A stretch of DNA of 55,062 nucleotides, from positions 1 to 55,062 of the IMG/VR virus record IMGVR_UViG_3300012156_000001; one strand, 5' to 3'. The notes beneath the pieces were generated by a model. That model ran no database searches, was not told the DNA's origin, and saw only the letters and a program-made list of their open reading frames with translations. The DNA is from a virus. Numbering within the stretch: the first letter of the stretch is position 1; each line of letters starts with the position of its first letter. Position numbers and translations under genes: made by a program. Shown here one piece after another: positions 1 to 55,062 of this stretch.

Positions 1-123
1 GCTTCATCGAAAATCAAGGCATACAAAAAGGAAATTGATGGATTGATTTTCGTAAAAGAGCGGATGATACCAATTGTTTTTACCGGAGAAATCGGAAACT
101 GCCAGCGTCCGCTAAGAGGGCAA
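1..123. repeat. 123-bp terminal direct repeat identical to 54940..55062 (contig closes on itself; unique length 54,939 bp)
   Basis: Base-by-base identity of 1-123 with 54940-55062 read directly from the sequence. Confidence 0.97.
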
Positions 124-369
124 ACAGCGCAGGGCGAACGAATTGCCTTAGCAAACAGTGAGACTATTCCGGCGGGTGCCTACATCGATTTTACGATCTC
201 ATGCCTGTGTGATGCACATATCAATGCCGTGAGGGAGTGGCTTGATTACGGAGCGTTGAGGGGTATGGGACAGTGGCGAAACAGCGGGAAAGGCCGCTAT
301 TTGTGGGACGAGATGGATGATTCTGGCAATGTGATTGGAGGAAACCGTGACTTTGAAGCAAGAAAATAA
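1..369 (+). CDS. 3' part of junction-spanning gene (5' part at 54667..55062); 213-aa hypothetical protein with RAMP (Csm3/Cas7)-like motif pattern
   Basis: Frame open from base 1, stop TAA 367-369. Same codon phase as 54667 ORF across the 123-bp overlap. C-terminal GMGQWRNSGKG fits GxGxxxxxGxG glycine loop. Confidence 0.7.
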   Translation, partial: ASSKIKAYKKEIDGLIFVKERMIPIVFTGEIGNCQRPLRGQTAQGERIALANSETIPAGAYIDFTISCLCDAHINAVREWLDYGALRGMGQWRNSGKGRYLWDEMDDSGNVIGGNRDFEARK

Positions 370-2479: not shown

Positions 2480-2487
2480 GAGGGCAC

Positions 2488-3114
2488 ATGGATAACGAGA
2501 TCATTGTTCAGGAACAAAAGTATGAGGTTGCGAATCCGTTCGCGAACTCAGCCGCTTTTCAGGAATTATATGATATAGGGAAAATGTTCGCGGTGTCTGA
2601 CATCGTACCAAGCAGCTATAGAGGCAAGCCGATGGATTGTGCGATTGCGGTTGACATGGCGAACCGAATGCAGGTGAGTCCGATGATGGTAATGCAAAAT
2701 TTATATATTGTGAAGGGAAAACCAACTTGGAGCGGACAGGCTTGCATGAGCATGATTTATGCCGCCAGACAGTTTAAAAACGCGAGAATCAGGCATGTGG
2801 GCAAAGAGGGGGACGCTGACCGAGGATGTTTCGTTGAGGCAGAATATAAAGACACCGGCGAAATTATCAAAGGAACAACCGTCACTATGGAAATGGCAGA
2901 AAAGGAAGGCTGGATAAATAAAGACGGCAGTAAGTGGAAGACGATGCCTGAACAAATGTTAATTTACCGCGCAGCTGCATTTTTCGCAAGGGCTTACTTG
3001 CCCAATGCCCTGATGGGCGTATACGTAGAGGGCGAGGCCGAAGACGCTTTCAAGGAAAAGACATTCTATGATATTCCGGATGTATTTCCCGCCATTCCGG
3101 AGGTGGTCGTATGA
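2488..3114 (+). CDS. Red-beta/RecT-family single-strand annealing protein
   Basis: C-terminal MPEQMLIYRAAAFFARAYLPNALMGVYVEGEAED resembles the conserved Red-beta/RecT segment. AGGAGG RBS. Flanked by ATPase and exonuclease genes. Confidence 0.7.
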   Translation: MDNEIIVQEQKYEVANPFANSAAFQELYDIGKMFAVSDIVPSSYRGKPMDCAIAVDMANRMQVSPMMVMQNLYIVKGKPTWSGQACMSMIYAARQFKNARIRHVGKEGDADRGCFVEAEYKDTGEIIKGTTVTMEMAEKEGWINKDGSKWKTMPEQMLIYRAAAFFARAYLPNALMGVYVEGEAEDAFKEKTFYDIPDVFPAIPEVVV

Positions 3115-3908
3115 TTCTTAGTGTAGAAAATTATCATAGCATAGAAGCCAATCAAGAATACCTGTCAGTCAGCCAATACAAGGACTTCTGCGGTAGTTTA
3201 GGAAAAGTCCCGTGCGAAGCCCAAGCACTTGCTAAACTGTCGGGAGAATGGAAAACAGAGAAGACTACCGCCTTGCTGGTCGGCTCTTATGTAGATGCCC
3301 ACTTTGAGGAATCATTAGGACTTTTCAAGGCGTCTAATTCAGAGATATTCACCAAAAGCGGCGATCTAAAAGCAGACTACAGGAATGCCGAAAATGTTAT
3401 ATGTAGGATCGAAAGAGATAGCTACATGATGAAATATCTTTCCGGGGAAAAGCAAGTGATTATGACCGGCGAAATAGCTGGCGCGAAGGTAAAAATCAAA
3501 ATAGACAGTTATTTGCCCGGTCAAGCGATTGTTGATCTCAAAGTGATGAAAGCTATTAAGGACACATTCTGGGTTCGCGACACCGGATATATGGATTTTG
3601 TCCAGTATTGGGGTTATGACATCCAAGGGGCTGTATATCAGGAGATTGTCAGACAAAACACCGGCGAGAAACTTCCGTTTTTTATAGCTGCGGCCAGTAA
3701 AGAAAAGGAACCGGACATCAACGTTATTTTCATTGATGATCTTCACCTGAAAGAAAAACTGATTGAGGTCGAAAGTAATGTAGCGAAAATTCTTGCATTG
3801 AAAAATGGCGACTATGAACCAATCCGCTGTGAGGTGTGTGATTATTGTAAGCACACAAAAGTACTCACCAAAGCGATTCATTTTTCTGAATTAATGGGGG
3901 ATTTGTGA
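3111..3908 (+). CDS. PD-(D/E)XK exonuclease, Cas4/DUF3799-like
   Basis: IKIDSY...IVDLKV core, QGAVYQ motif, N-terminal Cys pair (FCGS..PCE) and C-terminal CEVCDYC cluster. ATGA overlap with annealase gene. Confidence 0.7.
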   Translation: MILSVENYHSIEANQEYLSVSQYKDFCGSLGKVPCEAQALAKLSGEWKTEKTTALLVGSYVDAHFEESLGLFKASNSEIFTKSGDLKADYRNAENVICRIERDSYMMKYLSGEKQVIMTGEIAGAKVKIKIDSYLPGQAIVDLKVMKAIKDTFWVRDTGYMDFVQYWGYDIQGAVYQEIVRQNTGEKLPFFIAAASKEKEPDINVIFIDDLHLKEKLIEVESNVAKILALKNGDYEPIRCEVCDYCKHTKVLTKAIHFSELMGDL

Positions 3909-4285
3909 TGGAATACAAATTTGTTATCCAAGGGCGTTTGGATGGTCTGAATGAATACACAGCAGCCAACCGAACCAGCCCCCGCAAAGGCGGGAAAATG
4001 AAAGCCCAAAACCAAGAAGTTGTACAGTGGGCCATCCGGCAACAATTGAGACGGTTACATATATCTAGGCCCGTAAGAATCATTTATGACTGGTTCGAAA
4101 AAGACAGAAAAAGAGACCTTGATAATATTTCCAGTTTTGGCCGCAAGGTGATTCAAGACGCACTTGTGAAGTGTGGAACGCTGCAGGGGGACGGATGGAA
4201 ACATATTGTAGGATTTACGGATAATTTTCATTGCGATCCTGGTAATCCCCGGATTGAGATTATTATCCGGGAGGTTGAAATATGA
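3905..4285 (+). CDS. rusA: RusA-family Holliday-junction resolvase
   Basis: RDLDNISSFGRKVIQDALVKCGTLQGDG matches the RusA Asp-rich catalytic region; 126 aa. Confidence 0.85.
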   Translation: MMEYKFVIQGRLDGLNEYTAANRTSPRKGGKMKAQNQEVVQWAIRQQLRRLHISRPVRIIYDWFEKDRKRDLDNISSFGRKVIQDALVKCGTLQGDGWKHIVGFTDNFHCDPGNPRIEIIIREVEI

Positions 4286-6033: not shown

Positions 6034-6396
6034 TTGGGCAAAATGAGTAAAGAAAAGGGAAAGAGGGGCGAAAGGGAACTCGCTGGCATATTGAGACAGC
6101 ACGGATACAGCGACAGCCACCGGGGACAGCAATATTCGGGAGCTGACGGATCAGCGGATGTTGTAGGACTGCCGGGAATACATATCGAATGTAAGCGGGT
6201 GGAAAAGCTGAACCTGTATGATGCAATGGCCCAGGCGATTGAGGGCGGTACGAAACCACTGCCTTTTGAGGGAGACAGGCTTCCGGCGGTATTTCATCGA
6301 AAAAATAACCATAGTTGGTTGGTGACGATGCGACTGGAGGATTGGATCAAAATATACAAGGAATGCGAGGCGGGCAGGGAACAAGAAGAAAGCTAA
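6034..6396 (+). CDS. PD-(D/E)XK endonuclease of the Hjc/RecU-like resolvase type
   Basis: KGKRGERELAGIL...SADVVGLPGIHIECK gives a D-x(n)-E-x-K core; TTG start after AAAGGAGAA. Confidence 0.65.
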   Translation: MGKMSKEKGKRGERELAGILRQHGYSDSHRGQQYSGADGSADVVGLPGIHIECKRVEKLNLYDAMAQAIEGGTKPLPFEGDRLPAVFHRKNNHSWLVTMRLEDWIKIYKECEAGREQEES

Positions 6397-6486: not shown

Positions 6487-7242
6487 GTGTTTTTTCACAT
6501 GCTGCTAAAGGCTAACTGGAAAGAGGGAAGATTTCAAGGCCATTTGATCGAAAGAGGTTCTTTTGTATCATCCCTTCCCAAAATTGCCGAAGAAACAGGG
6601 CTAACAATTAATGAGGCTAGAGGAACCATAAAAAACTTAAAATTAACGGGCGAAATCACAGTCACATCACATTCAAAATACAGCGTATTTACAATAAAAA
6701 ACTATGATTTCTATCAAGACGTTAACGTACAGAACCACAGTCAGACCACAGACACTTCACAGGCAGACCACAGGCAGACCACATTCACTTCACATTCTGT
6801 TGACATTCTGTTAACAACAATAGAAGAAGTAGAAGAAGAAGAGAAAGAAGTAGAAGAAGGGAAGAAAGAAAGAAGGGAAGAAAAAGACTATAGTGTCATA
6901 GATGCCACTTGTCAGACTGATGTCCGACGAATCGTTGACGCTTGGAACCAGTGCGGAGCCGTGGAAGTAAAAACGCTATCCACCACCAGCAAGCGCTATC
7001 AAATGCTGAAAGCCAGAATTAAGGAGTACGGAGTTGATCAAGTGTTAGAAGCCATTGGAATGATCAAAAACAGACCATTTCTGTTAGGGCAAAATAAAAA
7101 TGGTTGGATGATAAGCTTTGAATGGTTTGTTAAGCCCAATAACTTCCCGAAGGTGCTGGAAGGTAATTATCAGGATCATAACCGAGGGAAAGTCGATGGT
7201 GGCTATAACGAAATGTTGAAAGGATGGGCAGAAAGTGAATAG
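6487..7242 (+). CDS. replisome organiser / DnaD-like initiator (SPP1 G38P-like); real start probably upstream near 6415
   Basis: Winged-helix N-terminal signature (HRKILEWEWY..FFHMLLKANWKEG..ERGSFVSS). DnaD-like C-terminus (RPFLLGQNKNGWMISFEWFVKPNNFPKVLEGNY). Confidence 0.8.
   Translation: MFFHMLLKANWKEGRFQGHLIERGSFVSSLPKIAEETGLTINEARGTIKNLKLTGEITVTSHSKYSVFTIKNYDFYQDVNVQNHSQTTDTSQADHRQTTFTSHSVDILLTTIEEVEEEEKEVEEGKKERREEKDYSVIDATCQTDVRRIVDAWNQCGAVEVKTLSTTSKRYQMLKARIKEYGVDQVLEAIGMIKNRPFLLGQNKNGWMISFEWFVKPNNFPKVLEGNYQDHNRGKVDGGYNEMLKGWAESE
6731..6890 (+). repeat. iteron cluster plus purine tract inside organiser gene (candidate ori)
   Basis: CAGACCACA at 6742, 6764, 6775. CACTTCACA at 6753, 6786. 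CATTCTGTT at 6793, 6804. GAA-rich tract 6823-6887. Confidence 0.5.
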
Positions 7243-7786
7243 AGAGGAGTTTGCTACTGTAGCATCTGCGTTACATAGCGCCTACGGAAAAAGCAACATC
7301 ATGCCAGATGAATCCGCGCTGAATCTGTGGTACGGCATGTTGAAAGACATTGACTATGCAGTTTGCAGAAACGCAATAACGCAGTTGATCAGCCAAAACA
7401 AATTTTCCCCAACGATTGCGGAGATTAGGGAAAAGTGCGCAACGATCACCGCGGAGCGTCTGCCGGAATGGGATGAAGCCTGGGGTATGGTGCTGATGGC
7501 GATAAGAAAACATGGCTACATGCGTGAGCTGGACGCCCTTGAGAGCCTACCAGATGCCGTCAGAGGGATTGTGAAGCGAATGGGCTATCAAAATATCTGC
7601 CAGAGTGAAAACATCAGCGTGGAGCGTGCCAATTTTAGAGAGGCGTACAAGGGGCAGATCAATTTGATAAAACAACAGAACGTACTTCCCGGGGCAGTAC
7701 GAAACGAACAGGCAGAGCTAATAAGGCAATGCGCCGAACGTTTGTCCATAAGTGCAGACAGCACAAAATTACAGGAGGAAAAATAA
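7235..7786 (+). CDS. G39P-like replicative-helicase loader
   Basis: WYGMLKDIDYAVCRNAITQLISQNKFSPTIAEI resembles the SPP1 G39P N-domain; follows organiser gene. Confidence 0.6.
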   Translation: MNREEFATVASALHSAYGKSNIMPDESALNLWYGMLKDIDYAVCRNAITQLISQNKFSPTIAEIREKCATITAERLPEWDEAWGMVLMAIRKHGYMRELDALESLPDAVRGIVKRMGYQNICQSENISVERANFREAYKGQINLIKQQNVLPGAVRNEQAELIRQCAERLSISADSTKLQEEK

Positions 7787-26546: not shown

Positions 26547-27872
26547 ATGGGTGGCAGATGGATCAGCCAAAATAAGGTCAGGCCCGGGGCATACATTAAT
26601 TTCAATGCCGTTTCAGCCCCGACTATGCAGGTTGGGGATAGAGGAATAGGCACATTGGCCATACCGCTTTCGTGGGGGCCAGAAAATACTCTTATAGAAG
26701 TGTACAGCACCGATCTATCGGATGGCAGTAGCCTGTCAAAAGTAGGATTTACGGCCTTTGATGTTCCGCCGTCGAACCCGTTGAGATTGATGCTGTCTAA
26801 TTGCTACTTAGCAAGAGTTTATAGGCTTGATAGCGGCGGTGTGAGGGCAACGGCAACACAGGGAAGCTTGACGGCAATAGCAAAGTATCCCGGAACCAAA
26901 GGTAACATGATTACTATAGTCATAACCGAATCCGATGGCCTTTTTACGGTCACAACTTACGTTGATGGAGCAAGCCGGGACGCACAAACAGCTTCCACGG
27001 TGCAGGAACTCGTAAACAATGATTATGTGGAATTCAGCGGATTCGGCGCGCTGGCCATAAATGCCGGCATTACCCTATCGGGCGGCACAAATGGCACAGT
27101 AACACCAGCGACGGCTTACCCGGCATACCTGGCATTAGCACGCAAGGCGCGCTGGCAGACAATGGCACTGACACAGAATAACGATACTTTTGCCGCACAG
27201 TTCGCCAAGTTTGCGGAGGAAATGCGCGACACAGAGGGCAAGTACGTCCAGGTTGTTGTTGCAAATTACGACGCAGCTGATTACCACGGCGTTATCAATT
27301 CCGATTGCGGTGTAATGATGGGCGACGTCGAAGTAACTGCCGAAGAGGCTACTGCGTGGGTTGCCGGAATTACCGCCGGGGCATCCGTGACGCAATCCAA
27401 TGTTGCCAAGGCATTTACCGGCGCTACTCGAATTTTGAACGAGCGCACTAATTCTGAAATCATCGAGGCCTTGCAGTCAGGCAAGTTTATTTTGTCGGTG
27501 AATACAAGTGGCAGCATTGTGGTTGAAGACGATATTAACAGTCTGCGTACATACACAGATAAATTGTCAGAATATTTTCGGCTCAACCAGATTATCAGGG
27601 TAATTGACGAAATCGGAACAAGCGCCAGCACGATCTGGGAAACGTCATTTAAGGGAATAGTGCAGAATAATGCAGACGGCAGGGGTATATTCCGAGCCAT
27701 GCTGCTGACATACTTCGGCGAATTGCAAACCCTTGGAGCGATTGAGAACTTTGACGGCGCAGTTGATGTTACGGTAACAGCTGGAGAGAAAAAGGATGCA
27801 GTTCTTGTCGGCGTCAATGTGCAGCCGGTAGCGGCAATGAGCAAGCTCTACATGGAAGTTTTTGTCAAATAA
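26547..27872 (+). CDS. contractile tail sheath protein (XkdK-like)
   Basis: N-terminal GGRWISQNKVRPGAYINF; 441 aa; followed by tube gene. Confidence 0.85.
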   Translation: MGGRWISQNKVRPGAYINFNAVSAPTMQVGDRGIGTLAIPLSWGPENTLIEVYSTDLSDGSSLSKVGFTAFDVPPSNPLRLMLSNCYLARVYRLDSGGVRATATQGSLTAIAKYPGTKGNMITIVITESDGLFTVTTYVDGASRDAQTASTVQELVNNDYVEFSGFGALAINAGITLSGGTNGTVTPATAYPAYLALARKARWQTMALTQNNDTFAAQFAKFAEEMRDTEGKYVQVVVANYDAADYHGVINSDCGVMMGDVEVTAEEATAWVAGITAGASVTQSNVAKAFTGATRILNERTNSEIIEALQSGKFILSVNTSGSIVVEDDINSLRTYTDKLSEYFRLNQIIRVIDEIGTSASTIWETSFKGIVQNNADGRGIFRAMLLTYFGELQTLGAIENFDGAVDVTVTAGEKKDAVLVGVNVQPVAAMSKLYMEVFVK

Positions 27873-27934
27873 ACATTATTTAAGCGCCTGTTTTTAAGTG
27901 GGCGCTTTCTTATGCTCGAAAAGGAGGAATATAA

Positions 27935-28399
27935 ATGCTATCACATGATTCAAGCCCGGTTGAGGGGCGGCGGGGAATAATCACGGCAGTTATCGACGGC
28001 AGAGTCGAGGAACTTGCTGAAATTAAAAATATCACTGCCAATATTTCAAAAAACAAAACCGCATGGAGAGCTATGGGCGATTCGGCGGATAGGCACAAAT
28101 CTGCCGGATGGACGGGGACTGGAAGTTTTACGTATCATTGGGTTACGAGTCGTTGGTCAAAGATGCTTATTGATTTTGCCAGAACAGGCAGAGATGTGTA
28201 TTTCACAATGGTTATTGTTAATGACGATCCAGGGAGCAGCGCGGGCAGGAATTCTGTTCAGCTGGAGCAATGTAATATTGACGGTGGCGATATAGCCATG
28301 CTTGATGTCGATACAGATATGCTCGAAGGTTCGTGCGATTATACTTTCAGCGGCGTTAATGACTTAGAGGCATTTAACGCTTTGTTCCCGGCAGCATAG
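27935..28399 (+). CDS. tail tube protein (XkdM-like)
   Basis: RHKSAGWTGTGSFTYHWVTS pattern; position. Confidence 0.8.
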   Translation: MLSHDSSPVEGRRGIITAVIDGRVEELAEIKNITANISKNKTAWRAMGDSADRHKSAGWTGTGSFTYHWVTSRWSKMLIDFARTGRDVYFTMVIVNDDPGSSAGRNSVQLEQCNIDGGDIAMLDVDTDMLEGSCDYTFSGVNDLEAFNALFPAA

Positions 28400-28415: not shown

Positions 28416-28814
28416 ATGAGTAAATTACAGGATTTATTATCCTTACCGGATGTATCAGAGTTTACCGAAGAGGTGTATGTCAGTGAAAGATTGGGAACGT
28501 TTATCGTCAGGCCAATGAGTGAAAAAGAGTGGTCTACTTATCGCACCAGGAGCCAGGGAAAGATTAATAAAAGAGGTGCAGACTTCGATAGTAGCAAATT
28601 CAATTTGCTGATTATAACCGGACATGTCATTGAGCCGAATCTCGCAGATGCAGAATTTCTTTCCAAAGCAAAATGCGCGACGGTAGCCGATTTTGTTACG
28701 AAAAAATTCTTAGCAGGTGAAGTGCAGGCATTGTCCGATGGAATTGTTCGGGCCAGCGGATTCGACGCAGAAGAAAACGATATTAACGACGAAATTAAAG
28801 AAGTAAAAAACTAA
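28416..28814 (+). CDS. tail assembly chaperone (XkdN-like)
   Basis: Position between tube and tape measure; ends in slippery A AAA AAC. Confidence 0.75.
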   Translation: MSKLQDLLSLPDVSEFTEEVYVSERLGTFIVRPMSEKEWSTYRTRSQGKINKRGADFDSSKFNLLIITGHVIEPNLADAEFLSKAKCATVADFVTKKFLAGEVQALSDGIVRASGFDAEENDINDEIKEVKN

Positions 28815-29002
28815 TCATGGAAGACGGGGAAATGGCGGCTTGTCAATATGCCGTATTGAACATGGGATACAAGCCGTCAGAGTTCGCCAATCTTCCACGA
28901 GCAGAAAAAGTATTCGTGATTGCGTGTATTGAAAACAAAATTGATGCAGAGAAAAAGCGGCTGGCAGAAATAAAATCAAGGCCAAAGAAGAGGGGCAGGT
29001 GA
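28805..29002 (+). CDS. -1 frameshift extension of the tail assembly chaperone
   Basis: Heptamer A_AAA_AAC 28805-11. The -1 frame stays open to 29002, just before the tape measure start. Confidence 0.6.
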   Translation, partial: KKLIMEDGEMAACQYAVLNMGYKPSEFANLPRAEKVFVIACIENKIDAEKKRLAEIKSRPKKRGR

Positions 29003-29008
29003 TGATCA

Positions 29009-30988
29009 ATGTCTACAATTAGCAGCACGCTTGCATTGCAGGACAAAATATCAAAACCTATGCAGAGCATAGTAAAAGCCATGAATAGCACTCTTGTTGT
29101 CATACGCAGCATTAAAGGCGCGGAGCTCGGTCCAGAATTCGCACAGGCGGCTGCTGATGCCAAACTTGCGACAGCGGCGATTGATCAAATGAATCAGAGT
29201 CTCAACGAGGTCAAAAATAATAAGGGATTCGAAAGCCAGGAAGGACAGATAACAGCTTTTAACGCAGCGCTGGAAGTATCGCGCAAAGGGTTGGCGCTTG
29301 TCAAATCGGGAATTAATGAGATTGGCAAATTAACAGGCTTGTATGATGTTCAGAAACAGGCTGAAACTTCCCTCGCAGTCGTTTTAGCCAACCAGGGCGT
29401 AGCGTTTGAAGATTACAAATCTATCCTCGAAGAAGCATCTGCGATACAGGCAAAAACCACTATCGGCGACGAAACAATGATTGCTGGACTAGCAGAGCTG
29501 GCGACTTATATATCGGACACAGAAGCCCTAACTGCACTTATGCCTACATTTGCGGATTTTGCCATAGGTATGAACGAGGGAGCGCCAGAGCTTGGAACAC
29601 AAGCAGCGGTTTCTTATGCCACAGCATTGGGCAAAGCGCTCCAAGGACAGTACGAAGGACTTACGAAAAAGGGATTTATAGTATCTGAATCCCAAAAAGC
29701 AGTTCTCGCACTACAGGACGACAGTGTAAAGTCCTTGAAGACTTTAGACAAACAAACCAGGGCTTACGTGGAAAGTGTAGGTCTTGAAGCTGCCAAGGTA
29801 GCTATAGTTGCCGAAGTAACAACGGAAACATGGGGCGGTTTAGCAGAAGCGATTGCTGGAACCGATGCTGGAAAGATTATCCAAATGAATAACGCCACGG
29901 GTGACTTAAAAGAAACTATAGGCGGCGAATTGTATCCATACGTGCTTCAATTCAAGGAATTATTAACATCCGCATTGAATCCAGCCCTTGAAGCTATTGC
30001 AGAGCACATGGATGTGATTGCACCGATCGCAATCGTACTTGCGGCAACGCTAGGTACACTGGCGGTAATAATCGGAGTGGTTACAGTGGCGCAGTGGTTA
30101 TGGAATACTGCTATTTTAGCTAATCCCTTGACATGGATAATAGTAGGCATTGTTGCTGTAGTTGCGGCGATAGCCGTGTGGATAAACTCGATGGGGGGAG
30201 TTCGGGCTGCATGGGAAACAGTAGTCGATGCGGTTCTTTCTGCCAGTGACAAGGCTAATCTCGGGTTCAAGACCGGCGTTTATGCCGTGCTGAATCTTTG
30301 GGATAAAATGAGTTTGGGAATGTCAAAGGCAGGGGCCGCAATAGCCGGATATATGGGTGACATGAAGGTAAACGTACTTACTATTTTGCAAAACATGGTT
30401 AATGGCGCTATTGACATTATTAATAAGTTTATCGGTGCCCTGGGAAGTATTCCGGGGGTAAGCATCGAAGCAATAGAACACGTTACTTTTGCTGCCACTG
30501 CCGCAGCGGAAAATGAAGCGGCAAAACAGGGAAGAGCGGCCGATATCGCAACAGCCGAAGCAGATATGATTTGGAATCAGCTGAAACGGCAGGAAGCTAT
30601 AGACACAATGGCTGCCGAAGCTCGTGCAGCGCATTCTGCGCGTCAGGCCAATATAGCAGAGCTTAGGGCGACTGGCGACAATGGCGATCTTATTGAGGGG
30701 ATTTTTAAATCGGCTTCCGGTGTTGAAAGTGCGCTCGGTGATGTAACTTCCGGATCGGGTGGTGGAAAAGCACTCAAGACCACCGGCGAAGTCAAGATTT
30801 CCGGCGAAGACATTAAACTATTGATGGATTTGGCAACCATCGATTACCAGGTAACCTATCAGACATTAACGCCACAGCTGTCTTTGAATATTGGCACAGT
30901 CAGGGAAACAGCTGACGTTAATTCTATTGTCGAAGAGATAGCGGCAGTGCTTGAAGAAGCTGCGGATTCGAGGGTGGTGCTGGCATGA
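29009..30988 (+). CDS. tape measure protein
   Basis: 659 aa, Ala-rich helical, central hydrophobic segments, position. Confidence 0.85.
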   Translation: MSTISSTLALQDKISKPMQSIVKAMNSTLVVIRSIKGAELGPEFAQAAADAKLATAAIDQMNQSLNEVKNNKGFESQEGQITAFNAALEVSRKGLALVKSGINEIGKLTGLYDVQKQAETSLAVVLANQGVAFEDYKSILEEASAIQAKTTIGDETMIAGLAELATYISDTEALTALMPTFADFAIGMNEGAPELGTQAAVSYATALGKALQGQYEGLTKKGFIVSESQKAVLALQDDSVKSLKTLDKQTRAYVESVGLEAAKVAIVAEVTTETWGGLAEAIAGTDAGKIIQMNNATGDLKETIGGELYPYVLQFKELLTSALNPALEAIAEHMDVIAPIAIVLAATLGTLAVIIGVVTVAQWLWNTAILANPLTWIIVGIVAVVAAIAVWINSMGGVRAAWETVVDAVLSASDKANLGFKTGVYAVLNLWDKMSLGMSKAGAAIAGYMGDMKVNVLTILQNMVNGAIDIINKFIGALGSIPGVSIEAIEHVTFAATAAAENEAAKQGRAADIATAEADMIWNQLKRQEAIDTMAAEARAAHSARQANIAELRATGDNGDLIEGIFKSASGVESALGDVTSGSGGGKALKTTGEVKISGEDIKLLMDLATIDYQVTYQTLTPQLSLNIGTVRETADVNSIVEEIAAVLEEAADSRVVLA

Positions 30989-49988: not shown

Positions 49989-50215
49989 CGTGTTGCATTT
50001 CGTGTTGCATAGCATTACATTTACTCATTTTTTGTTCTATTTTTACGGTATATATTATGTACTTCGTTATCCGCAAAGCGCTTAAGTACGGGCATTCGTT
50101 GAATTTGCTTTGTTTTTCAACTTTCCAATTAACGGGCTTTTAACCCGTATACCGTTATTTAAAAGTGGCGTATTTACGTTGAATTTCCCGGTTCGTGTTG
50201 TTTTTCGTGTTGCAT
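49989..50215. repeat. attP-region direct repeats (candidate integrase arm sites)
   Basis: CGTGTTGCAT at 49989, 50001, 50206 and CGTGTTGTTT at 50194. Two pairs with 12-bp spacing, about 205 bp apart. Confidence 0.5.
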
Positions 50216-51418
50216 GAACAATAAAAATTCATTTTTTGAATCTTCCGAATCTTCTTTTTCAAACAAGACAAGCCACGCTTGATATTTTTTTTGGTCAACT
50301 TCGCCGACCTCTGGTTTTATTATATTTTCAAAATAATTATCAATCATGGCATCCACTTTTCTCCGTTCGTCGGGAAGCGTCTGCATATATACGCGTTTCA
50401 TTATCCGATCAGATTTCCAACCTCCCCTTTCTTGCGCATATTTATCAGGTATTCGAAGCAGAGCCATTATAGACGCGCTAAGGTGGCGCAGATCATGAAA
50501 GGTCATATGCGGTAGGCCATTGTCGTTCAATAATCGAATCCACCGTCGGTACAAAGTGTGTCCGCTCATCGGTACAAGTATATCACCATCTACCTGGTGA
50601 ATCAACTGCATAATGTAAGGTGGAATATGATGGGTACGATTCCGGTATTGATTCTTCGCCATGTCCTTGCGGATGGGCTTGCCGCAAACATCAACAATAA
50701 CCTCTGCGATCCTGATACAATCCCCTGATATAGATTTTGATTTTGTCAAACCGCGCACTTCTGACATAGAAAATGATAACCATGCGGCTAATAATACGGC
50801 TAATTCAATTTCGGTACCACGAATGATATCTATCACGGTTTTTGCCGGCAACAATTCCGGTACCCGTTCTTTTATTGGAGGCAATTCCACCTCACATACA
50901 AGCTCTTTGCGATACTTTTTCAAAACAGCAGCAATAAGAGCCCACTCATTTCTTAATCGCTTTGCGGAGATAGTTCTAATACCGTTTTTAATAGATTTTC
51001 GCTGCGATTCCATGTTGACTGCTTCCTGTAAAATTTCTTCATCAAAATCCTTTAACTGCATGTCCATCAAATCGCGAAAACCGCATTTCTGGATGCATCG
51101 ATAATCTTGGATAGTCGTGGGGGAGCGCTCTAGTGGGATGCGACTGTCTATGTATTTGTCAATAGCTTCTGTGAGCGTCATATCGCCATGTATTGCCGGT
51201 TTCTTTGCTGGAGTCTTACCTTTATCCATCTGAAACTGCGCAGCCATATACTGAGCCTCTTTGGCGCTGCCGGCCGTAAAAGATTCATACACCCGCCGTT
51301 GTTTCTGCTTTCCGTTCCCGTCCAGCACTGGCTGACCGGTTGCTTCATAGACCGGTTCGCTATGGCTGTAGGCCAAACACCGCCAGGAGCCACTTGGTAG
51401 TTTTTTTGCTTTTGCCAT
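50174..51418 (-). CDS. int: tyrosine integrase
   Basis: HDLRHLSAS and GGWKSDRIMKRVY catalytic motifs; ATG 51418 6 nt after GGGAGGG (the ORF-track N-extension has no RBS). Confidence 0.9.
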   Translation of the reverse strand: MAKAKKLPSGSWRCLAYSHSEPVYEATGQPVLDGNGKQKQRRVYESFTAGSAKEAQYMAAQFQMDKGKTPAKKPAIHGDMTLTEAIDKYIDSRIPLERSPTTIQDYRCIQKCGFRDLMDMQLKDFDEEILQEAVNMESQRKSIKNGIRTISAKRLRNEWALIAAVLKKYRKELVCEVELPPIKERVPELLPAKTVIDIIRGTEIELAVLLAAWLSFSMSEVRGLTKSKSISGDCIRIAEVIVDVCGKPIRKDMAKNQYRNRTHHIPPYIMQLIHQVDGDILVPMSGHTLYRRWIRLLNDNGLPHMTFHDLRHLSASIMALLRIPDKYAQERGGWKSDRIMKRVYMQTLPDERRKVDAMIDNYFENIIKPEVGEVDQKKYQAWLVLFEKEDSEDSKNEFLLFMQHEKQHEPGNST

Positions 51419-51554
51419 TATCGTCCCTCCCTGACCCTGAGTATAAAAATGCACCCTTGCCGAAAAAATTCCATTAGCAGCAGGGGCAAATTTAAGGTTT
51501 GTGGTAAATACTTTTGCGTGTCGAAACAAGTCGAACCTGTGTTCTATTTTCCTG

Positions 51555-51583
51555 TTGACATGATGTTGGTGTGCAGTTATAAT
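51555..51583 (+). promoter_or_regulatory. consensus sigma70 promoter pointing into the 3' end of the repressor gene
   Basis: -35 TTGACA 51555-60, 17-nt spacer, -10 TATAAT 51578-83. Confidence 0.6.
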
Positions 51584-51645
51584 ATACACATCGGCAAATC
51601 TGTAATGAATATTTGGTTTGCCAGTAGTGAAAGGGGTGTGTATAC

Positions 51646-51756
51646 GTGGATAGTCTCAAAAACGAACTGCATGAATTGATTGACAAAATACATAGCGCAA
51701 AATTCCTGAAAAGTCTCATTAGTTTAATCAGGAGTGTTTTAGAGAGCGAGGATTAG
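51646..51756 (+). CDS. micro-ORF (36 aa)
   Basis: GTG about 8 nt after GAAAGGGG; ELHELIDKIHSAKFLKSLISLIRSVL; overlaps repressor stop by 4 nt. Confidence 0.35.
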   Translation: MDSLKNELHELIDKIHSAKFLKSLISLIRSVLESED

Positions 51757-52154
51757 TCTTCGCTCTCTTTTTCTACCCTTTCTACTCTGTCGATACAAGC
51801 CTTGAATTCCTCATAGATGCTTTCCCATTGTTCGTCCGGAAGTGTTTCTACTATCTTTAGAAGCATTGTAGCCATATTCTTCTTAATGGGACTTCCCACT
51901 TCCATTATCTTCCCGAAGCGTCCATATGTTTCTTCTTCTATGGAAAGATCTTTTTTCATATTGCCCTTGCCGGTCCGCAACCAAACTTCACTTATACTTA
52001 ACTTTTCGCATATTTTCGAAATGTGTATGTCTTTGGGGCTCCTTGTTCCCAGCTCCCACATTGCTACCGTGGACGAACCGACCAATATTTCCTTGCTGAA
52101 TTCTGCTTGGCTCATATTAAGACTTTCCCTTACTTTTTTTATACGCTCTTTCAA
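51753..52154 (-). CDS. CI-like XRE-family repressor
   Basis: TTG start 6 nt after AGGAGG; LNMSQAEFSKEILVGSSTVAMWELG HTH; divergent from early promoter. Confidence 0.8.
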   Translation of the reverse strand: MKERIKKVRESLNMSQAEFSKEILVGSSTVAMWELGTRSPKDIHISKICEKLSISEVWLRTGKGNMKKDLSIEEETYGRFGKIMEVGSPIKKNMATMLLKIVETLPDEQWESIYEEFKACIDRVERVEKESED

Positions 52155-52272: not shown

Positions 52273-52329
52273 GGGAGTGAGGTGAGATACATAATATTGA
52301 AAATCAAAGATGTTGAAAGAAAGGAGACT

Positions 52330-53124
52330 ATGAACGAGTTAATTAGAATCAATTATGAATCAGAGCAGCCGACGGTATCAGCGAGGGATTTATATGATTT
52401 GCTTTCAAGTGAAAGCGGATTGGCAGGAACCGAGAGATTTAGCAAGTGGTTTGAACGATATGCCGGATACGGATTTCAGCAGGGAATCGATTTTTCAACC
52501 CCGAACAAAAAAGTACGGGTTCAAATGGAGGGACACAGAACCGTATCGAGGGAGATTGAAGACTATGACTTATCGGTTGACATGGCAAAACAAATTTGCA
52601 TGCTCCAAAGAACTGATAAGGGAATGGAGATAAGACAACACTTTCTCGATTTAGAAAAAGCTTGGAACACTCCCGAACAGGTCATGGCCAGAGCATTAAA
52701 GATGGCCGAGCAATCCATGGCCAGTTTGAAAGACCGCTGCCGGTTCTTGGGTGGACAGGTAGTGGAGCAACAGAAAGTAATCGAGCAGTTGCAACCAAAG
52801 GCATCGTACTACGACTTGATTCTCCAGTGCAAGGATTTGATTGCGACAACGATTATCGCCAAGGATTACGGGATGTCGGCGATAGCGTTCAATAAAATGC
52901 TTCACGAAATGGGAATTCAGTATCAGCAGAGCGGAACTTGGGTTTTATATGCAAAATACCAAGGACAAGGGTATTTGAAGCCAAAAACTCATAATTACGC
53001 CGATGCCGCAGGTATTCAACATTCAAGAGAGCATTCCTATTGGACGCAGAAGGGCAGATTGTTTCTTTACGATTTATTGAAACAAGAATGTATATTGCCC
53101 TTGATGGAAAGGAAGATTGCTTGA
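52330..53124 (+). CDS. antirepressor (AntA-like N-domain, KilAC-like C-domain)
   Basis: VSARDLYDLL..FSKWFERY.. N-domain; IIAKDYGMSAIAFNKMLHEMGIQY..LYAKYQGQGY C-domain. Confidence 0.7.
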   Translation: MNELIRINYESEQPTVSARDLYDLLSSESGLAGTERFSKWFERYAGYGFQQGIDFSTPNKKVRVQMEGHRTVSREIEDYDLSVDMAKQICMLQRTDKGMEIRQHFLDLEKAWNTPEQVMARALKMAEQSMASLKDRCRFLGGQVVEQQKVIEQLQPKASYYDLILQCKDLIATTIIAKDYGMSAIAFNKMLHEMGIQYQQSGTWVLYAKYQGQGYLKPKTHNYADAAGIQHSREHSYWTQKGRLFLYDLLKQECILPLMERKIA

Positions 53125-53328: not shown

Positions 53329-53484
53329 ATGAAAGTAACAATCAAAGCAACACCCAAAGAAATCGCCACCCTCATAATTGAATTACAAGGGCGGCAGGCA
53401 GCCCCAGTTTATGAGACATTTGCGCCGAAGCTAAAGCTTTCGCTTAATCCGAAAGCCACTCATGATACTGCCGAAGAATCTTAA
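53329..53484 (+). CDS. small hypothetical protein (51 aa)
   Basis: ATG 7 nt after AAAGGAG; 3' end overlaps convergent ORF by 41 nt. Confidence 0.4.
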   Translation: MKVTIKATPKEIATLIIELQGRQAAPVYETFAPKLKLSLNPKATHDTAEES

Positions 53485-53647
53485 GCGTCATTTCGATATT
53501 GGAATTCAATACAAATGACAAGAATTCCTCAACGGTTTCGTCCGTGAGGGGTAGCCGGATTTGAAGCATCCGTGCATTTAATTCCCTCGACCATTCATCC
53601 TGATGTTCTTGGGTGATTGACTGACAGAAATCGTTAAATGATTTCAT
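53444..53647 (-). CDS. small hypothetical protein (67 aa)
   Basis: ATG 9 nt after AAGGGAG on the minus strand. Confidence 0.5.
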   Translation of the reverse strand: MKSFNDFCQSITQEHQDEWSRELNARMLQIRLPLTDETVEEFLSFVLNSNIEMTLKILRQYHEWLSD

Positions 53648-53781
53648 CGTAATTTTCTCCCTTCTTTTGTACTCGGCATGCCAGTACCTGTACTTTGATT
53701 ATAGGAGAACTTGGAGAAAATAGCAACAAGTGTAACCAGTAATTAATATAATGCAACAATTGTCAAAAAGGAGATGACATT

Positions 53782-54057
53782 ATGCCAGCAATTAAACCAA
53801 GTCAAGAAAAACAGGCGCTAATCATAGCCGCCGGGGAAATCAACGCCAACATTTCCCGAAGTCATTTGTCACGACAGCAAGTCATGACAATCTGCGGATT
53901 CTGCCAGCAAACTTATTATGACCGTCAGGACAGCCCGAACAACTACCGGCTGGTGGAATTACAGCGGTTGGCTCGGAAAACGAACATGAATCCAATGCAG
54001 GCCGCCAGTATTGTTCTCGGTAGGCGGGTGACATTGAATGAGATTATGAATTGCTAA
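53782..54057 (+). CDS. small putative DNA-binding protein (91 aa)
   Basis: ATG after AAAGGAGATG; helix-rich; precedes the GCAAAGG array. Confidence 0.55.
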   Translation: MPAIKPSQEKQALIIAAGEINANISRSHLSRQQVMTICGFCQQTYYDRQDSPNNYRLVELQRLARKTNMNPMQAASIVLGRRVTLNEIMNC

Positions 54058-54059
54058 AA

Positions 54060-54666
54060 ACGCGATGGATACGCATGGTTTGGCCGAGGGCGGCGTTGAT
54101 TAGCAAAGGAATGGCAACGCAATGAGATGCGATGGTATAGCTTTGTATGGGGTGGCAATGGAGTGGCTTAGGGTGGCGATGGCAAAGCAAAGCGATGGTT
54201 GGCAGAGCAAGGCAGGGCTACGAACGGTAAGGGCAGTGCTAACCGCCGATTGGCAAAGGAGCTGCTCGGCAAGGTAGGGCGTTGCAAAGGCATTGCAGGG
54301 CACGGGGCGGCAAGGGCGAGGCGCGGAATGGTGTCGCAAAGGGTGGCATGGCAAGGGAAACGCAGCGCGTTGCAAAGGCATAGCGCAGGATAACATGGCG
54401 GAGTATGGCAAGGGCGCAGCAAAGCAAGGCAAAGTGCTGCAAAGGAGTGGCGAAGCTGTGGGTAGCAGCGCAAAGGCAGAGCATCGCTGGGCGTGGTTGT
54501 GGATAGTCTTGAATAGCCGAGGAACTGCACAGCCAGGCCAGGCAGGTCACAGCAAAGGAACAGCCGTGCACAGTGCAGCAGCGCAAAGGAAAAGCCTAGC
54601 CCAGCAACGCAAAGGCACAGCACAGGATTCAAAAACTAAAACATCAAAAAGAAGAGGAGAGCAGAA
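54060..54666 (+). repeat. T-poor purine-rich non-coding array with ten same-strand GCAAAGG copies
   Basis: GCAAAGG at 54103, 54253, 54284, 54336, 54372, 54439, 54470, 54552, 54583, 54609. GGCAAGGG three times; GCGATGG variants at the left end. Confidence 0.85.
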
Positions 54667-55062
54667 ATGAAGGAATTAAAAGTAAGAATAACATTTACGG
54701 AGGAAATTTTAGGAACGGCAAGCAGTGATCCGGAAATTCACAGCACTTTTATCGCATCCAACGCACCCGACGCACCGACACGTGCCGAAGAAGTCGCAGC
54801 GGTTGGAGTTGACGAAGTGATTGAAAAATCAATGACCATCTTCCCGCGCAACAAAGAGGGACATCCCATCATGTGGGACTATCAAGTGAAGGGATTTTTT
54901 AAAGATGCCTGTGGCTGCTTGCGGAAGGTGCCCAATTCGGCTTCATCGAAAATCAAGGCATACAAAAAGGAAATTGATGGATTGATTTTCGTAAAAGAGC
55001 GGATGATACCAATTGTTTTTACCGGAGAAATCGGAAACTGCCAGCGTCCGCTAAGAGGGCAA
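54667..55062 (+). CDS. 5' part of junction-spanning gene (continues at 1..369): RAMP-like hypothetical protein
   Basis: ATG 6 nt after AGAGGAGAGCAG; open to the window end; the last 123 nt duplicate 1-123. Confidence 0.7.
   Translation, partial: MKELKVRITFTEEILGTASSDPEIHSTFIASNAPDAPTRAEEVAAVGVDEVIEKSMTIFPRNKEGHPIMWDYQVKGFFKDACGCLRKVPNSASSKIKAYKKEIDGLIFVKERMIPIVFTGEIGNCQRPLRGQ
54940..55062. repeat. second copy of the 123-bp terminal repeat
   Basis: Identical to 1-123. Confidence 0.97.

What the first reader, a model, noticed from the sequence alone, without database searches (positions are those of the whole stretch)
54060..54666. 600-bp T-poor, purine-rich array with ten same-strand GCAAAGG copies inside the early operon
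About 600 bp lie between the stop of 53782..54057 and the RBS of the 54667 gene, and they do not behave like coding DNA.

- The + strand is visibly G/A-rich and T-poor. That is why five long ORFs stay open across both strands.
- The heptamer GCAAAGG occurs 10 times, always on the + strand: 54103, 54253, 54284, 54336, 54372, 54439, 54470, 54552, 54583, 54609. There is no reverse-complement copy.
- Related motifs are present: GGCAAGGG three times, GCAAAGC twice, and GCGATGG/GGCAATGG in the left 100 bp.
- Spacing is irregular (26-150 bp). The copies fall in all three codon phases (start coordinates mod 3 = 1,1,2,0,0,1,2,0,1,0), so this is a nucleic-acid-level repeat and not a peptide repeat.
- The array is co-oriented with the flanking genes, so it should be transcribed as a long intercistronic RNA.
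- Half of the copies extend to AAGGA/AAGGAG. This gives many SD-like or GGA-type motifs with no start codon, reminiscent of protein-sponge RNAs.

Possible functions:
- an RNA ligand or scaffold for the adjacent RAMP-like protein;
- an RNA sponge for a GGA-binding regulator or for ribosomes;
- a DNA iteron array (second origin, partition site or recombinase-loading site);
- G-quadruplex-prone DNA.

I know of no described phage element that matches this.
Basis: seen in the sequence. Interest (0 to 1): 0.8.

Follow-up and report, generated by a model that had tools for sequence, protein, structure and literature searches.

The report
Phage guide-RNA repeat array (VIPR)
The 600-bp "GCAAAGG array" is a long run of five-base repeats that most likely encodes the guide RNA of a VIPR system, a phage RNA-guided DNA-silencing system related to CRISPR and first described in two 2026 preprints, so it is real but already explained.

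Summary
GCAAAGG occurs 10 times on the + strand of 54103-54615. A composition-matched shuffle expects 0.76, and no reverse-complement copy exists.

The spacing is not irregular. The stretch 54059-54626 is 110 tandem units (about 92 pentamers, 18 hexamers) with consensus A-N-R-G-C and a G fixed in every unit. GCAAAGG marks the roughly every-sixth unit that carries one extra base, giving a 31-nt super-period.

The downstream 213-aa protein models as a minimal Cas7/Csm3-like RAMP. Of 160 related loci, 151 carry the same kind of array directly beside this gene on the same strand, either upstream or downstream. The period is conserved at 5.15 ± 0.03 nt.

This matches VIPR systems (bioRxiv 10.64898/2026.04.26.720920 and .720927). 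There, Vipr RAMP protomers bind one vrRNA pentamer each and form a six-per-turn filament. The filament pairs with DNA through the variable bases and silences competing phages. Profile comparison with the tested SUSP1 Vipr gives E = 6e-5 over the full length.

This clade differs from the tested type:
- Only one G per repeat is fixed.
- Arrays are continuous, with no structured tail.
- No conserved accessory gene was found.

Targets were not found. Verdict: a new member of a recently described kind.

The parts
54059..54626 (+). vrRNA-type repeat array: 110 tandem units (about 92 pentamers and 18 hexamers), consensus A-N-R-G-C (equivalent to Y-N-N-R-G). The G is fixed in 94-97% of units. The super-period is about 31 nt.
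   Evidence: Autocorrelation. DP/EM segmentation and shuffle control. Local-chain finder. No Rfam family matches. No fold beyond chance, z = -0.74.
54103..54615 (+). Ten GCAAAGG copies at 54103, 54253, 54284, 54336, 54372, 54439, 54470, 54552, 54583, 54609. Each is the junction Y-AAA-GG where a repeat carries one extra base. It is the conserved core (GCAAnGG) of the ~31-nt super-unit.
   Evidence: positions, enrichment. (a hexamer nnnGCA followed by AAGGn). (the same core G-C-A/G-A-n-G-G-C/A-A around hexamers in 1054 instances from diverged genomes).
54627..54666 (+). A-rich spacer carrying the ribosome-binding site (GAGGAG) of the vipr-like gene. In close relatives the arrays end 20-51 nt before the ATG.
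   Evidence: Sequence. Array end positions.
54667..55062 (+). vipr-like gene, 5' part (codons 1-132). The protein is a 213-aa minimal RAMP.
   Evidence: AF2 model: pLDDT 77, pTM 0.72. The top 50 Foldseek PDB hits are all Csm3/Cas7 chains. Profile comparison with the SUSP1 Vipr family: E = 6.3e-5.
1..369 (+). vipr-like gene, 3' part. Positions 1-123 repeat 54940-55062 (contig end overlap). Positions 124-369 are the continuation, with the stop at 367-369. This part contains the G-rich loop G-M-G-Q-W-R-N-S-G-K-G-R-Y.
53782..54057 (+). Upstream 91-aa ORF of unknown function. The array starts 2 nt after its stop codon. It is not a conserved partner: it was found in 1 of 160 related loci.
53648..53781 (.). 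Divergent intergenic region with the small palindromes GGCATGCC and AGTAC..GTACT. It is the likely promoter/operator region of the transcript that carries the array. In L050 and L063 the same element lies directly before the array.
   Evidence: The promoter itself was not identified; this is inference.

Best explanation
The array is the vrRNA (guide RNA) array of a VIPR (Viral Interference Programmable Repeat) system. The 213-aa gene next to it encodes the Vipr protein, a minimal RAMP related to Cas7.

Mechanism, taken from the two preprints on the E. coli phage SUSP1 system and inferred here by homology and anatomy:
- The array is transcribed with the early operon.
- One Vipr protomer binds each pentamer. 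It holds the fixed G (and the following pyrimidine) in protein pockets formed by the thumb and G-loop.
- The variable bases between the fixed Gs are presented for non-contiguous pairing with double-stranded DNA.
- The bound complex represses transcription of competing phages, prophages or satellites.

Shown here:
- the repeat anatomy;
- its tight, strand-specific linkage to the gene across 151 of 160 loci;
- the RAMP fold;
- remote homology to a tested Vipr;
- a fixed G with fast-evolving N positions.

Inferred: transcription, filament formation, DNA targeting and the biological role.

In this clade one extra base is inserted about every sixth repeat, which corresponds to once per published filament turn. 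It is marked by GCAAnGG. It may delimit one-turn vrRNAs or keep a long filament in register. This last point is speculation.
For: (1) Repeat anatomy.
- The array has 110 units of 5/6 nt with a G fixed in 94-97% of units.
- The preprint defines vrRNAs as tandem YNNGG pentamers and lists the alternative consensus forms NNNGG, YNNNG and NNNNG.

(2) The protein.
- No Pfam, PHROG, NCBIfam or PADLOC hit.
- The AF2 model hits only Csm3/Cas7 chains: E from 3e-5, TM 0.45-0.52.
- The best BFVD match is annotated 'RAMP superfamily protein'.
- The G-loop motif is detected by a weak Csm4 match.

(3) Homology to a tested Vipr.
- I located the SUSP1 VIPR locus in NC_028808. A 195-aa gene at 28474-29061(-) is flanked by GGTNN tracts, which my finder recovers at 29169-29238, 27889-27969 and 27618-27682.
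- hhalign of our family against the SUSP1 family gives E = 6.3e-5 and probability 64% over 184 columns, full length.

(4) Residue-to-repeat correspondence.
- In SUSP1, the second G is held by thumb R138 and G-loop W178. The first G is held by H17 and D177.
- In our family the aligned W183 is invariant and R184 nearly so. D177 corresponds to Q182, and H17 falls at T17 (nearly invariant) in the alignment.
- This fits an array in which only one G per repeat is fixed.

(5) Linkage.
- 151 of 160 related loci (53-99% protein identity, IMG/VR and GTDB genomes) have such an array within 200 nt of the gene, always on its strand.
- Position varies: upstream in 84, downstream in 60, both sides in 7. Arrays hold 22-281 units.
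- The best chain on the other strand scores at most 18, against 20-168 on the gene strand.
- The preprint likewise reports vrRNAs upstream and downstream of vipr.

(6) Guide-like evolution.
- Phages with 97-99% identical proteins share only mosaic blocks of 16-60 nt in their arrays; one, L005, is near-identical.
- Between homologous blocks the fixed G changes at 1.0% of sites, against 6.1-8.4% at the three N positions.

(7) Period.
- The period is 5.150 ± 0.026 nt in 66 arrays.
- The extra base recurs every 5-7 units, with mode 6.
- The published binary filament has six subunits per turn.

(8) Context.
- This is a temperate phage early region with no CRISPR array and no cas genes, as described for VIPR.
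Against: - No expression or binding data exist for this locus.
- Homology to SUSP1 Vipr is remote: hhalign probability is 64%, and the single-sequence comparison was not significant.
- The strict GGY motif of the tested type II system is not met. The first G is G in only 40-45% of units and the Y is C in 56-66%. In SUSP1, GGY-to-AGY substitution abolished silencing.
- No conserved structured 3' tail.
- No conserved accessory (vap) gene.
- No natural target was found under eight pairing/skip rules in 1.13 Mb of related phage DNA. One IMG/VR scan also found nothing.
- I could not place the protein in the preprint's type I-VII tree because the supplementary data are not held.
Confidence: 0.82

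Rival explanations
1. The array RNA is bound periodically by the RAMP-like protein but is not a DNA-targeting guide. The coated RNA could serve another purpose: autoregulation of the gene, protection or insulation of the polycistronic mRNA, a decoy for host type III CRISPR components, or a scaffold for the neighbouring recombination proteins.
For: - No target was found under any pairing rule.
- Arrays reach 281 units, far longer than the 9-16-repeat vrRNAs tested in the preprint.
- The N1 position is biased to A (53-58%), which lowers its coding capacity.
- In the window and in L035/L036 the module sits inside a recombination module of SbcC-like ATPase, RecT and exonuclease.
Against: - N positions evolve 6-8 times faster than the fixed G, and arrays turn over as cassettes. 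This is the behaviour expected of guides, not of a generic scaffold.
- No neighbouring gene is conserved, so linkage to recombination genes is not general.
- The array can lie upstream or downstream of the gene, which argues against a 5'-UTR autoregulatory role.
- The homologous SUSP1 system has a demonstrated guide function.
Confidence: 0.1
2. The array works as double-stranded DNA: an iteron or partition-like array, or a helically phased protein-loading site. On this view the 5.15-bp period is half a helical turn and 31 bp is three turns of 10.3 bp.
For: - A non-integer, long-range coherent period of 5.15 ± 0.03 is what rotational phasing on a double helix would give.
- GC skew is strongly positive, a composition commonly associated with R-loop formation.
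Against: - The array is always on the coding strand of the gene (151 of 151 arrays found). A duplex binding site would not need this.
- The array lies inside the transcription unit, ending at the next RBS or at a terminator.
- The partner protein has an RNA-binding RAMP fold.
- The phage has its own DnaD-like initiator and helicase loader 6-7 kb away and an integrase, so neither a second origin nor a partition site is called for.
- The period is fully explained by one extra base per roughly six protomers of a six-per-turn filament.
Confidence: 0.04
3. The array is a protein sponge for a GGA-binding regulator (CsrA-like) or for ribosomes. Alternatively it is G-quadruplex-forming or otherwise structured RNA.
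For: - Five of the ten GCAAAGG copies read AAGGA.
- G makes up 37% of the region.
Against: - Across 160 loci the conserved feature is a single G every 5.15 nt, not GGA. The base after the fixed G is C in 56-66% of units.
- Fixed Gs are isolated and do not form runs.
- Predicted folding is no better than shuffles, z = -0.74.
- No Rfam family matches.
Confidence: 0.02
4. The region encodes a protein: the 125-aa + strand ORF 54293-54670 or one of the - strand ORFs.
For: ORFs of 110-154 aa are open on both strands.
Against: - The ORFs are open only because T is scarce.
- There is no 3-nt periodicity and a strong 5-nt periodicity.
- The extra base every ~31 nt breaks any reading frame.
- No family hits.
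- Array length and content vary freely between phages with 97-99% identical neighbouring proteins.
Confidence: 0.01

Closest known systems
VIPR systems, type II (Escherichia phage SUSP1 and Pseudomonas fulva prophage): Vipr protein plus vrRNA (bioRxiv 10.64898/2026.04.26.720920 and 10.64898/2026.04.26.720927)
   Same: - A small single-RRM RAMP protein (~20 kD) with a G-loop and thumb.
- Encoded in a (pro)phage, outside any CRISPR locus.
- Flanked on the same strand by tandem pentanucleotide repeats in which a G-containing motif is fixed and the bases between vary quickly.
- Arrays lie upstream and/or downstream of the gene.
- G-loop Trp-Arg is conserved.
- Full-length profile match, E = 6e-5.
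   Different: - Here only one G per repeat is fixed (Y-N-N-R-G rather than Y-N-N-G-G).
- The residues that read the first G in SUSP1 (H17, D177) are replaced.
- Arrays are continuous runs of 22-281 repeats, not discrete ~100-nt vrRNAs of 9-16 repeats each capped by a pseudoknotted tail.
- One extra base recurs about every six repeats (period 5.15 nt, core GCAAnGG).
- No conserved vap gene.
- Hosts are gut Clostridia and Coriobacteriia rather than Proteobacteria.
- The preprint mentions YNNNG/NNNNG repeats and 'staggered arrays', which may cover this form. I could not check this.
Class 1 CRISPR-Cas backbone (Cas7/Csm3 filament on crRNA)
   Same: - RAMP fold.
- One protomer per short RNA segment.
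- A thumb flips bases at a fixed period.
- A helical filament presents the guide.
- The best structural matches are Csm3 and Cas7 chains.
   Different: - The period is 5.15 nt, not 6.
- There is no CRISPR repeat-spacer array and no Cas5, Cas6, Cas10, Cas11 or adaptation genes.
- No sequence-profile match to any Cas7 family.
- The guide information is non-contiguous.
TRAP and the trp leader RNA of Bacillus subtilis (from my own knowledge)
   Same: A homo-oligomeric protein reads a short G-containing motif repeated every 5-6 nt on an otherwise unstructured, same-strand RNA.
   Different: - TRAP is an 11-mer ring of a different fold, reading 9-11 GAG/UAG triplets to control attenuation.
- Here there are tens to hundreds of repeats and a RAMP filament.
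- The spacers carry information.
Type III toxin-antitoxin loci (ToxIN): a tandem RNA repeat array next to its protein partner gene
   Same: A co-oriented tandem repeat array directly beside the gene of the protein that binds the RNA.
   Different: - ToxI repeats are exact 36-nt pseudoknot units cleaved by the ToxN endoribonuclease.
- Here the units are degenerate 5-mers with no predicted structure.
- The protein has a RAMP fold.

Membership tests
VIPR (Vipr + vrRNA) | Vipr protein: a small (~20 kD) RAMP with a single RRM core, glycine-rich loop and thumb | tested here: met
   - 213 aa. AF2 model has pLDDT 77 and pTM 0.72.
- All of the top 50 PDB matches are Csm3/Cas7 chains, probability 0.99-1.0, TM 0.40-0.52.
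- The G-loop G-x-G-Q-W-R-N-S-G-K-G-R-F is conserved.
- A long conserved basic beta-hairpin at 123-147 is the likely thumb (inference).
VIPR (Vipr + vrRNA) | Homology to an experimentally characterised Vipr (SUSP1) | tested here: met
   - hhalign of 45 family members against 30 SUSP1-family members gives E = 6.3e-5, probability 64%, 184 aligned columns covering both proteins end to end.
- This is moderate, not strong. A single SUSP1 sequence alone gave E = 0.019, and tblastn does not connect them.
VIPR (Vipr + vrRNA) | Tandem pentanucleotide repeats (at least 4 units) with a conserved G motif alternating with variable bases, in the intergenic DNA flanking vipr | tested here: met
   - 110 units in the window.
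- 151 of 160 related loci have an adjacent same-strand array of 22-281 units.
- The same finder recovers three of the four SUSP1 vrRNA tracts, as a positive control.
VIPR (Vipr + vrRNA) | Strict GGY consensus of the tested type II repeats | tested here: not met
   - The second G is fixed (94-99%).
- The first G position is G in only 40-45% of units.
- Y is C in 56-66% and A in 14-30% of units.
- This fits the alternative 'YNNNG' consensus that the preprint lists for other types.
VIPR (Vipr + vrRNA) | Variable positions are hypervariable relative to the fixed motif | tested here: met
   - Mismatch rate between homologous array blocks is 1.0% at the fixed G, 6.1-8.4% at N1-N3 and 4.6% at Y (the HSPs are not phylogenetically independent).
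- Arrays of phages with 97-99% identical proteins share only mosaic blocks.
VIPR (Vipr + vrRNA) | Viral or proviral, non-CRISPR context | tested here: met
   - The window is a circular temperate phage contig with integrase, CI-like repressor and antirepressor.
- No CRISPR-DR or other Rfam hit.
- 361 relatives were found in IMG/VR.
VIPR (Vipr + vrRNA) | Accessory vap gene next to vipr | tested here: not met
   - No window neighbour is conserved across the 160 loci.
- 269 flanking ORFs fall into 154 clusters. The largest (22 members) is an antirepressor.
- The preprint says loci 'typically' have a vap, so this feature is not strictly defining.
VIPR (Vipr + vrRNA) | Conserved structured 3' tail capping each vrRNA (described for type II) | tested here: not met
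   - Arrays run straight into the next RBS or a terminator, with no shared tail.
- The array fold is no better than shuffles.
- No ribozyme hit.
VIPR (Vipr + vrRNA) | DNA targets matching the variable bases with a 1-nt skip | tested here: inconclusive
   - Eight pairing/skip rules tested against 1.13 Mb of related phage loci gave counts equal to decoys.
- One 20-base gapped pattern gave 0 hits in IMG/VR.
VIPR (Vipr + vrRNA) | vrRNA is expressed and co-purifies with Vipr; the RNP forms a helical filament | not testable with these tools
   Needs sRNA-seq, pull-down and cryo-EM.
VIPR (Vipr + vrRNA) | Assignment to one of the seven published types | not testable with these tools
   The tree, logos and locus lists are in figures and data files that are not held.
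CRISPR-Cas class 1 (Cas7/Csm3 with crRNA) | Sequence-profile membership in a Cas7/Csm3 family, a CRISPR repeat-spacer array, partner cas genes, and a 6-nt period | tested here: not met
   - No Pfam, NCBIfam or PADLOC hit.
- No CRISPR array or cas genes in the window.
- The period is 5.15 nt.
- Only the fold is shared.
Replication-origin or partition iterons | A DNA repeat bound as duplex, orientation-independent, linked to an initiator or partition gene | tested here: not met
   - The array is strictly on the strand of the RAMP gene in all loci that have one.
- The initiator and helicase loader lie at 6487-7786, away from the array.
CsrB/RsmZ-type sponge RNA | Many GGA motifs presented in hairpin loops | tested here: not met
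   - GGA is not conserved.
- No stable structure.
- No Rfam match.

The most novel reading that the evidence does not exclude
This very large gut-phage clade has about 2000 protein clusters at 50% identity. It may be a distinct VIPR variant with a different code and architecture from the tested type II system.
- Only one G per repeat is read by the protein, so three bases per repeat (not two) may be free to specify the target.
- Arrays are continuous filaments of up to 281 protomers.
- A conserved GCAAnGG element adds one base once per six repeats, which is once per turn of the published six-subunit helix. It would either cut the array into 31-nt one-turn guides or keep a multi-turn filament in register.

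Either outcome would extend the known rules of non-contiguous RNA-guided DNA recognition.
Probability: 0.3. Interest if true: 0.6.

Novelty: new member of a known kind. Interest (0 to 1): 0.45.

Why it matters
- VIPR was described only in 2026 as a minimal, PAM-free, RNA-guided DNA-binding system of phages and a proposed ancestor of CRISPR RAMPs.
- This locus shows that a very abundant clade of gut Clostridia and Coriobacteriia prophages carries such a module. The profile search gave 1987 clusters at 50% identity.
- The module here has relaxed repeat rules, very long arrays and a precise 5.15-nt period.
- That gives a natural test set for how the repeat code and filament geometry vary, and for which phages compete in the gut.
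- For annotation, the ORFs called inside such arrays are spurious, and the arrays can be found with a simple periodic-G scan.

Tried and rejected
- **Rfam.** Searched at gathering and at permissive thresholds. Nothing relevant.
- **Tandem Repeats Finder and generic repeat finding.** Both miss the array because the units are too degenerate. Autocorrelation and a custom 5/6-mer chain model were needed.
- **Ideas considered before the literature hit.** ROOL/GOLLD-type large ncRNA, Chi-site cluster, R-loop origin, Hfq/CsrA sponge, TRAP-like ring, RecT loading site and SSB-like role. Each was dropped because of the strict gene linkage, the strand rule, the RAMP fold and the fixed-G period.
- **Origin of replication.** The phage has its own DnaD-like initiator elsewhere.
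- **Conserved accessory gene.** None found by tblastn of window neighbours or by clustering of flanking ORFs.
- **Conserved 3' tail or structure.** None.
- **Target prediction.** Nine rules at 18 specified bases and eight rules at 12-16 specified bases gave no excess over reversed or resampled decoys in 1.13 Mb. One IMG/VR scan of a 10-unit N1N2x pattern gave 0 hits. Further scans were not run: exact-match-only scanning with unknown vrRNA boundaries has little power.
- **Direct sequence links to SUSP1 Vipr.** tblastn gave nothing, and a single-sequence hhalign was weak. Only profile-profile comparison connects the families.
- **Literature searches.** The first two did not find the system. The third did.
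Full report
**The observation**

The other 54.4 kb of the window has seven copies on both strands together. Shuffling 54060-54666 itself while preserving its dinucleotides gives 0.76 ± 0.85 copies. The maximum is 5 in 5000 shuffles, so composition does not explain the count.

The region is G 37%, A 30%, C 20%, T 13.5%, with GC skew up to +0.43. The open reading frames on both strands follow from the scarcity of T. They have no family matches, and the region has no 3-nt periodicity.

The window is a circular or terminally redundant phage contig: 1-123 repeats 54940-55062. The gene starting at 54667 therefore runs on to 369 and encodes 213 aa.

**The real anatomy**

The spacing is not irregular.
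- Base autocorrelation peaks at lags 5, 10/11, 15/16, 20/21, 26, 31, 36 ... 62, at 0.40-0.45 against 0.28 expected.
- An EM/dynamic-programming segmentation divides the stretch from 54059 onwards into about 110 tandem units. The first run gave 94 pentamers and 18 hexamers over 54058-54640.
- The unit consensus is A-N-R-G-C. G is at unit position 4 in 94% of units, C at position 5 in 66% and A at position 1 in 58%.
- The segmentation score is 174, against 32 ± 6 (maximum 45) in dinucleotide shuffles.
- GCAAAGG is the place where a unit has one extra base (nnnGC-A followed by AAGGn). This recurs about every six units, which gives the 31-nt super-period and explains the observed spacings of 26, 31, 36, 52, 67, 82 and 150.
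- The RNA is not predicted to fold better than shuffles (z = -0.74).
- It matches no Rfam family.

**Surroundings**

The array lies in the early region of a temperate phage. The gene order is:
- integrase 50174-51589 (-);
- CI-like repressor 51753-52154 (-);
- antirepressor 52282-53124 (+);
- small ORFs, including a divergent one at 53444-53647 (-);
- a 91-aa ORF at 53782-54057 (+);
- the array;
- the 213-aa gene;
- two small ORFs;
- an SbcC-like ATPase, RecT, a PDDEXK exonuclease and RusA.

A DnaD-like initiator and a helicase loader lie at 6487-7786.

**The neighbouring protein**

- It has at least 8000 homologues at 90% clustering, all unnamed.
- A profile search finds 1987 clusters at 50% identity.
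- It has no Pfam, PHROG, NCBIfam or PADLOC match.
- An AlphaFold2 model from a 30-sequence alignment has pLDDT 77 and pTM 0.72.
- In the PDB the model matches only Csm3/Cas7 chains of type III, type VII and Cas7-11 complexes: E from 3e-5, TM 0.40-0.52.
- Its best viral match is annotated as a RAMP superfamily protein.
- A weak profile match to Csm4 falls on the glycine-rich loop G-x-G-Q-W-R-N-S-G-K-G-R-F.

**Comparative evidence**

I fetched 80 IMG/VR loci (66-99% protein identity) and 80 GTDB genome loci (53-73% identity). The genome loci are mostly Lachnospiraceae, Oscillospiraceae, Ruminococcaceae and Coriobacteriia, plus some bins of other phyla. I scanned each whole locus on both strands with the 5/6-mer chain model.

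- In 151 of 160 loci a chain scoring at least 18 lies within 200 nt of the gene and on its strand. It is upstream in 84, downstream in 60 and on both sides in 7.
- Arrays hold 22-281 units (113-1440 nt).
- The best chain on the opposite strand never exceeds 18.
- Of the nine exceptions, five have a weaker array and two are truncated contigs.
- The Fourier peak of the G track is at 5.150 ± 0.026 nt in 66 arrays, from genomes of 40-66% G+C among the loci with arrays long enough to test.
- The non-pentamer units are regularly spaced. The gap mode is 6 (28%), then 5 (23%) and 7 (15%), which is far from a geometric distribution.
- Shuffling unit order lowers the spectral peak in most arrays.
- Around the extra base the diverged genome set shows the conserved core G-C-A/G-A-n-G-G-C/A-A, a generalised GCAAAGG.
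- Phages whose proteins are 97-99% identical share only mosaic blocks of 16-60 nt in their arrays. One, L005, is near-identical.
- Between homologous blocks the fixed G differs at 1.0% of sites, against 6.1-8.4% at the three N positions.
- No flanking gene is conserved: 269 flanking ORFs fall into 154 clusters.

The unit that moves and persists is the gene plus the array.

**What it is**

[quoted passage not shown] It describes VIPR systems as follows:
- a phage-encoded minimal RAMP protein (Vipr, ~20 kD);
- vrRNAs made of 9-16 YNNGG pentamer repeats, encoded in the long intergenic regions upstream and/or downstream of vipr;
- the GGY motif is conserved and the NN bases are hypervariable;
- the RNP binds double-stranded DNA through the NN bases only, skipping one target base per repeat;
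- it represses transcription of competing phages, prophages and satellites;
- seven types are reported, with alternative repeat consensus forms (NNNGG, YNNNG, NNNNG), 'staggered' arrays, ribozyme-interspersed arrays and single vrRNAs, plus variable accessory vap genes.

The companion structural preprint (10.64898/2026.04.26.720927) shows:
- one Vipr protomer per repeat;
- a right-handed filament with six subunits per turn (five when DNA is bound);
- the second G held by thumb R138 and G-loop W178, and the first G held by H17 and D177.

**Membership tests run here**

- I located the SUSP1 locus in NC_028808. A 195-aa gene at 28474-29061 (-) and a 146-aa gene are flanked by 450-530-bp gaps full of GGTNN repeats.
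- My G-period finder recovers three of its four tracts, only on that strand. This is a positive control for the method.
- Profile-profile comparison of our family (45 sequences) with the SUSP1 family (30 sequences) gives E = 6.3e-5 and probability 64%, aligned end to end. This is remote but consistent homology.
- In that alignment the G-loop Trp-Arg that holds the second G is conserved: W183 is invariant and R184 nearly so.
- The two residues that read the first G are replaced: D177 by Q182, and H17 by T17 (nearly invariant).
- That matches the array, in which only one G per repeat is fixed. The position of the first G is G in only 40-45% of units. This residue-to-repeat link is my inference.

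Features of the tested type II system that are not met here:
- strict GGY;
- a structured 3' tail;
- a conserved vap gene.

The repeat form Y-N-N-N-G is one the preprint lists for other types. I could not see its figures or data files to assign a type.

**How it most likely works**

These steps are inferred from homology and anatomy.
1. The array is transcribed as part of the early operon.
2. Vipr protomers coat it, one per repeat, each clamping the fixed G and the following base.
3. The filament presents the intervening bases for gapped pairing with DNA of rival mobile elements and blocks their transcription.

The extra base every ~6 repeats coincides with the six-subunit turn of the published filament. 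It could mark boundaries of 31-nt one-turn vrRNAs or keep long filaments in register. Nothing here tests that.

**What remains open**

I could not find targets.
- Eight encodings of the variable bases (two or three bases per repeat, 0-2 skipped bases) gave no excess over reversed or resampled decoys in 1.13 Mb of related phage loci.
- One exact gapped scan of IMG/VR found nothing.
- The available tools cannot run mismatch-tolerant gapped searches of large collections, so this result is inconclusive rather than negative.

**Rivals**

- A non-guide role for the coated RNA remains possible, at about 0.1.
- A duplex-DNA role would explain a period of half a helical turn. It is contradicted by the absolute strand rule, the position inside the transcription unit and the RNA-binding fold of the partner.
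- Sponge, G-quadruplex and coding readings fail on the conserved features.

**Verdict**

The element belongs to a kind described in 2026. It is a new member, possibly a distinct variant, from a very large gut-phage clade.

Noticed in passing
window 1-123 and 54940-55062: The two ends of the window are identical over 123 bases, so the contig is circular or terminally redundant. The vipr-like gene spans the junction.
   Followed up: yes
window 53648-53781 (core 53671-53700): A divergent intergenic region with two small palindromes (GGCATGCC, AGTAC..GTACT) lies between the - strand ORF 53444-53647 and the + strand ORF 53782-54057. The same element sits directly before the array in L050 and L063. 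It is probably the operator/promoter of the transcript carrying the array. A - strand promoter-like site lies at 53726-53698.
   Followed up: partly
window 3905-4285 and 6034-6396: The phage has two separate RusA-like Holliday-junction resolvase genes. No recognisable SSB gene lies between the recombination and replication modules.
   Followed up: no
L162 (Hydrogenobaculum phage 1, KP282676) 2258-3745: A homologue with 27% identity is followed by a 717-nt stretch with 7% C and autocorrelation peaks at lags 5, 15, 31 and 36. The gene-plus-pentamer-array pairing may therefore reach an Aquificota phage. Two small CDS annotated inside the stretch are probably spurious.
   Followed up: partly
L014 (and L013, L015-L017) about 600-750 nt upstream of the vipr-like gene: There are clusters of GGTAACC / CTCGGTTAC direct and inverted repeats, which look like iterons or operators of a different element. 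They are unrelated to the pentamer array.
   Followed up: no
L035 and L036 (IMG/VR): Here the module sits between an SbcC-like ATPase gene and a RecT-like gene, and L035 has arrays on both sides of the gene. In the window the same three gene types are neighbours in a different order. The linkage does not hold across the 160 loci.
   Followed up: partly
L136 1469-2908 and L110 3724-4866 (GTDB genome loci): These are very long arrays of 281 and 222 units (1440 and 1143 nt), far beyond the 9-16 repeats of the vrRNAs tested in the preprint.
   Followed up: no
window 1031-2479: The SbcC-like ATPase downstream of the module gives weak matches to defence-system ATPases (PtuA, AriA, LmuB, GajA; E from 3e-8 to 1e-4). 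These are most likely generic P-loop similarity.
   Followed up: no
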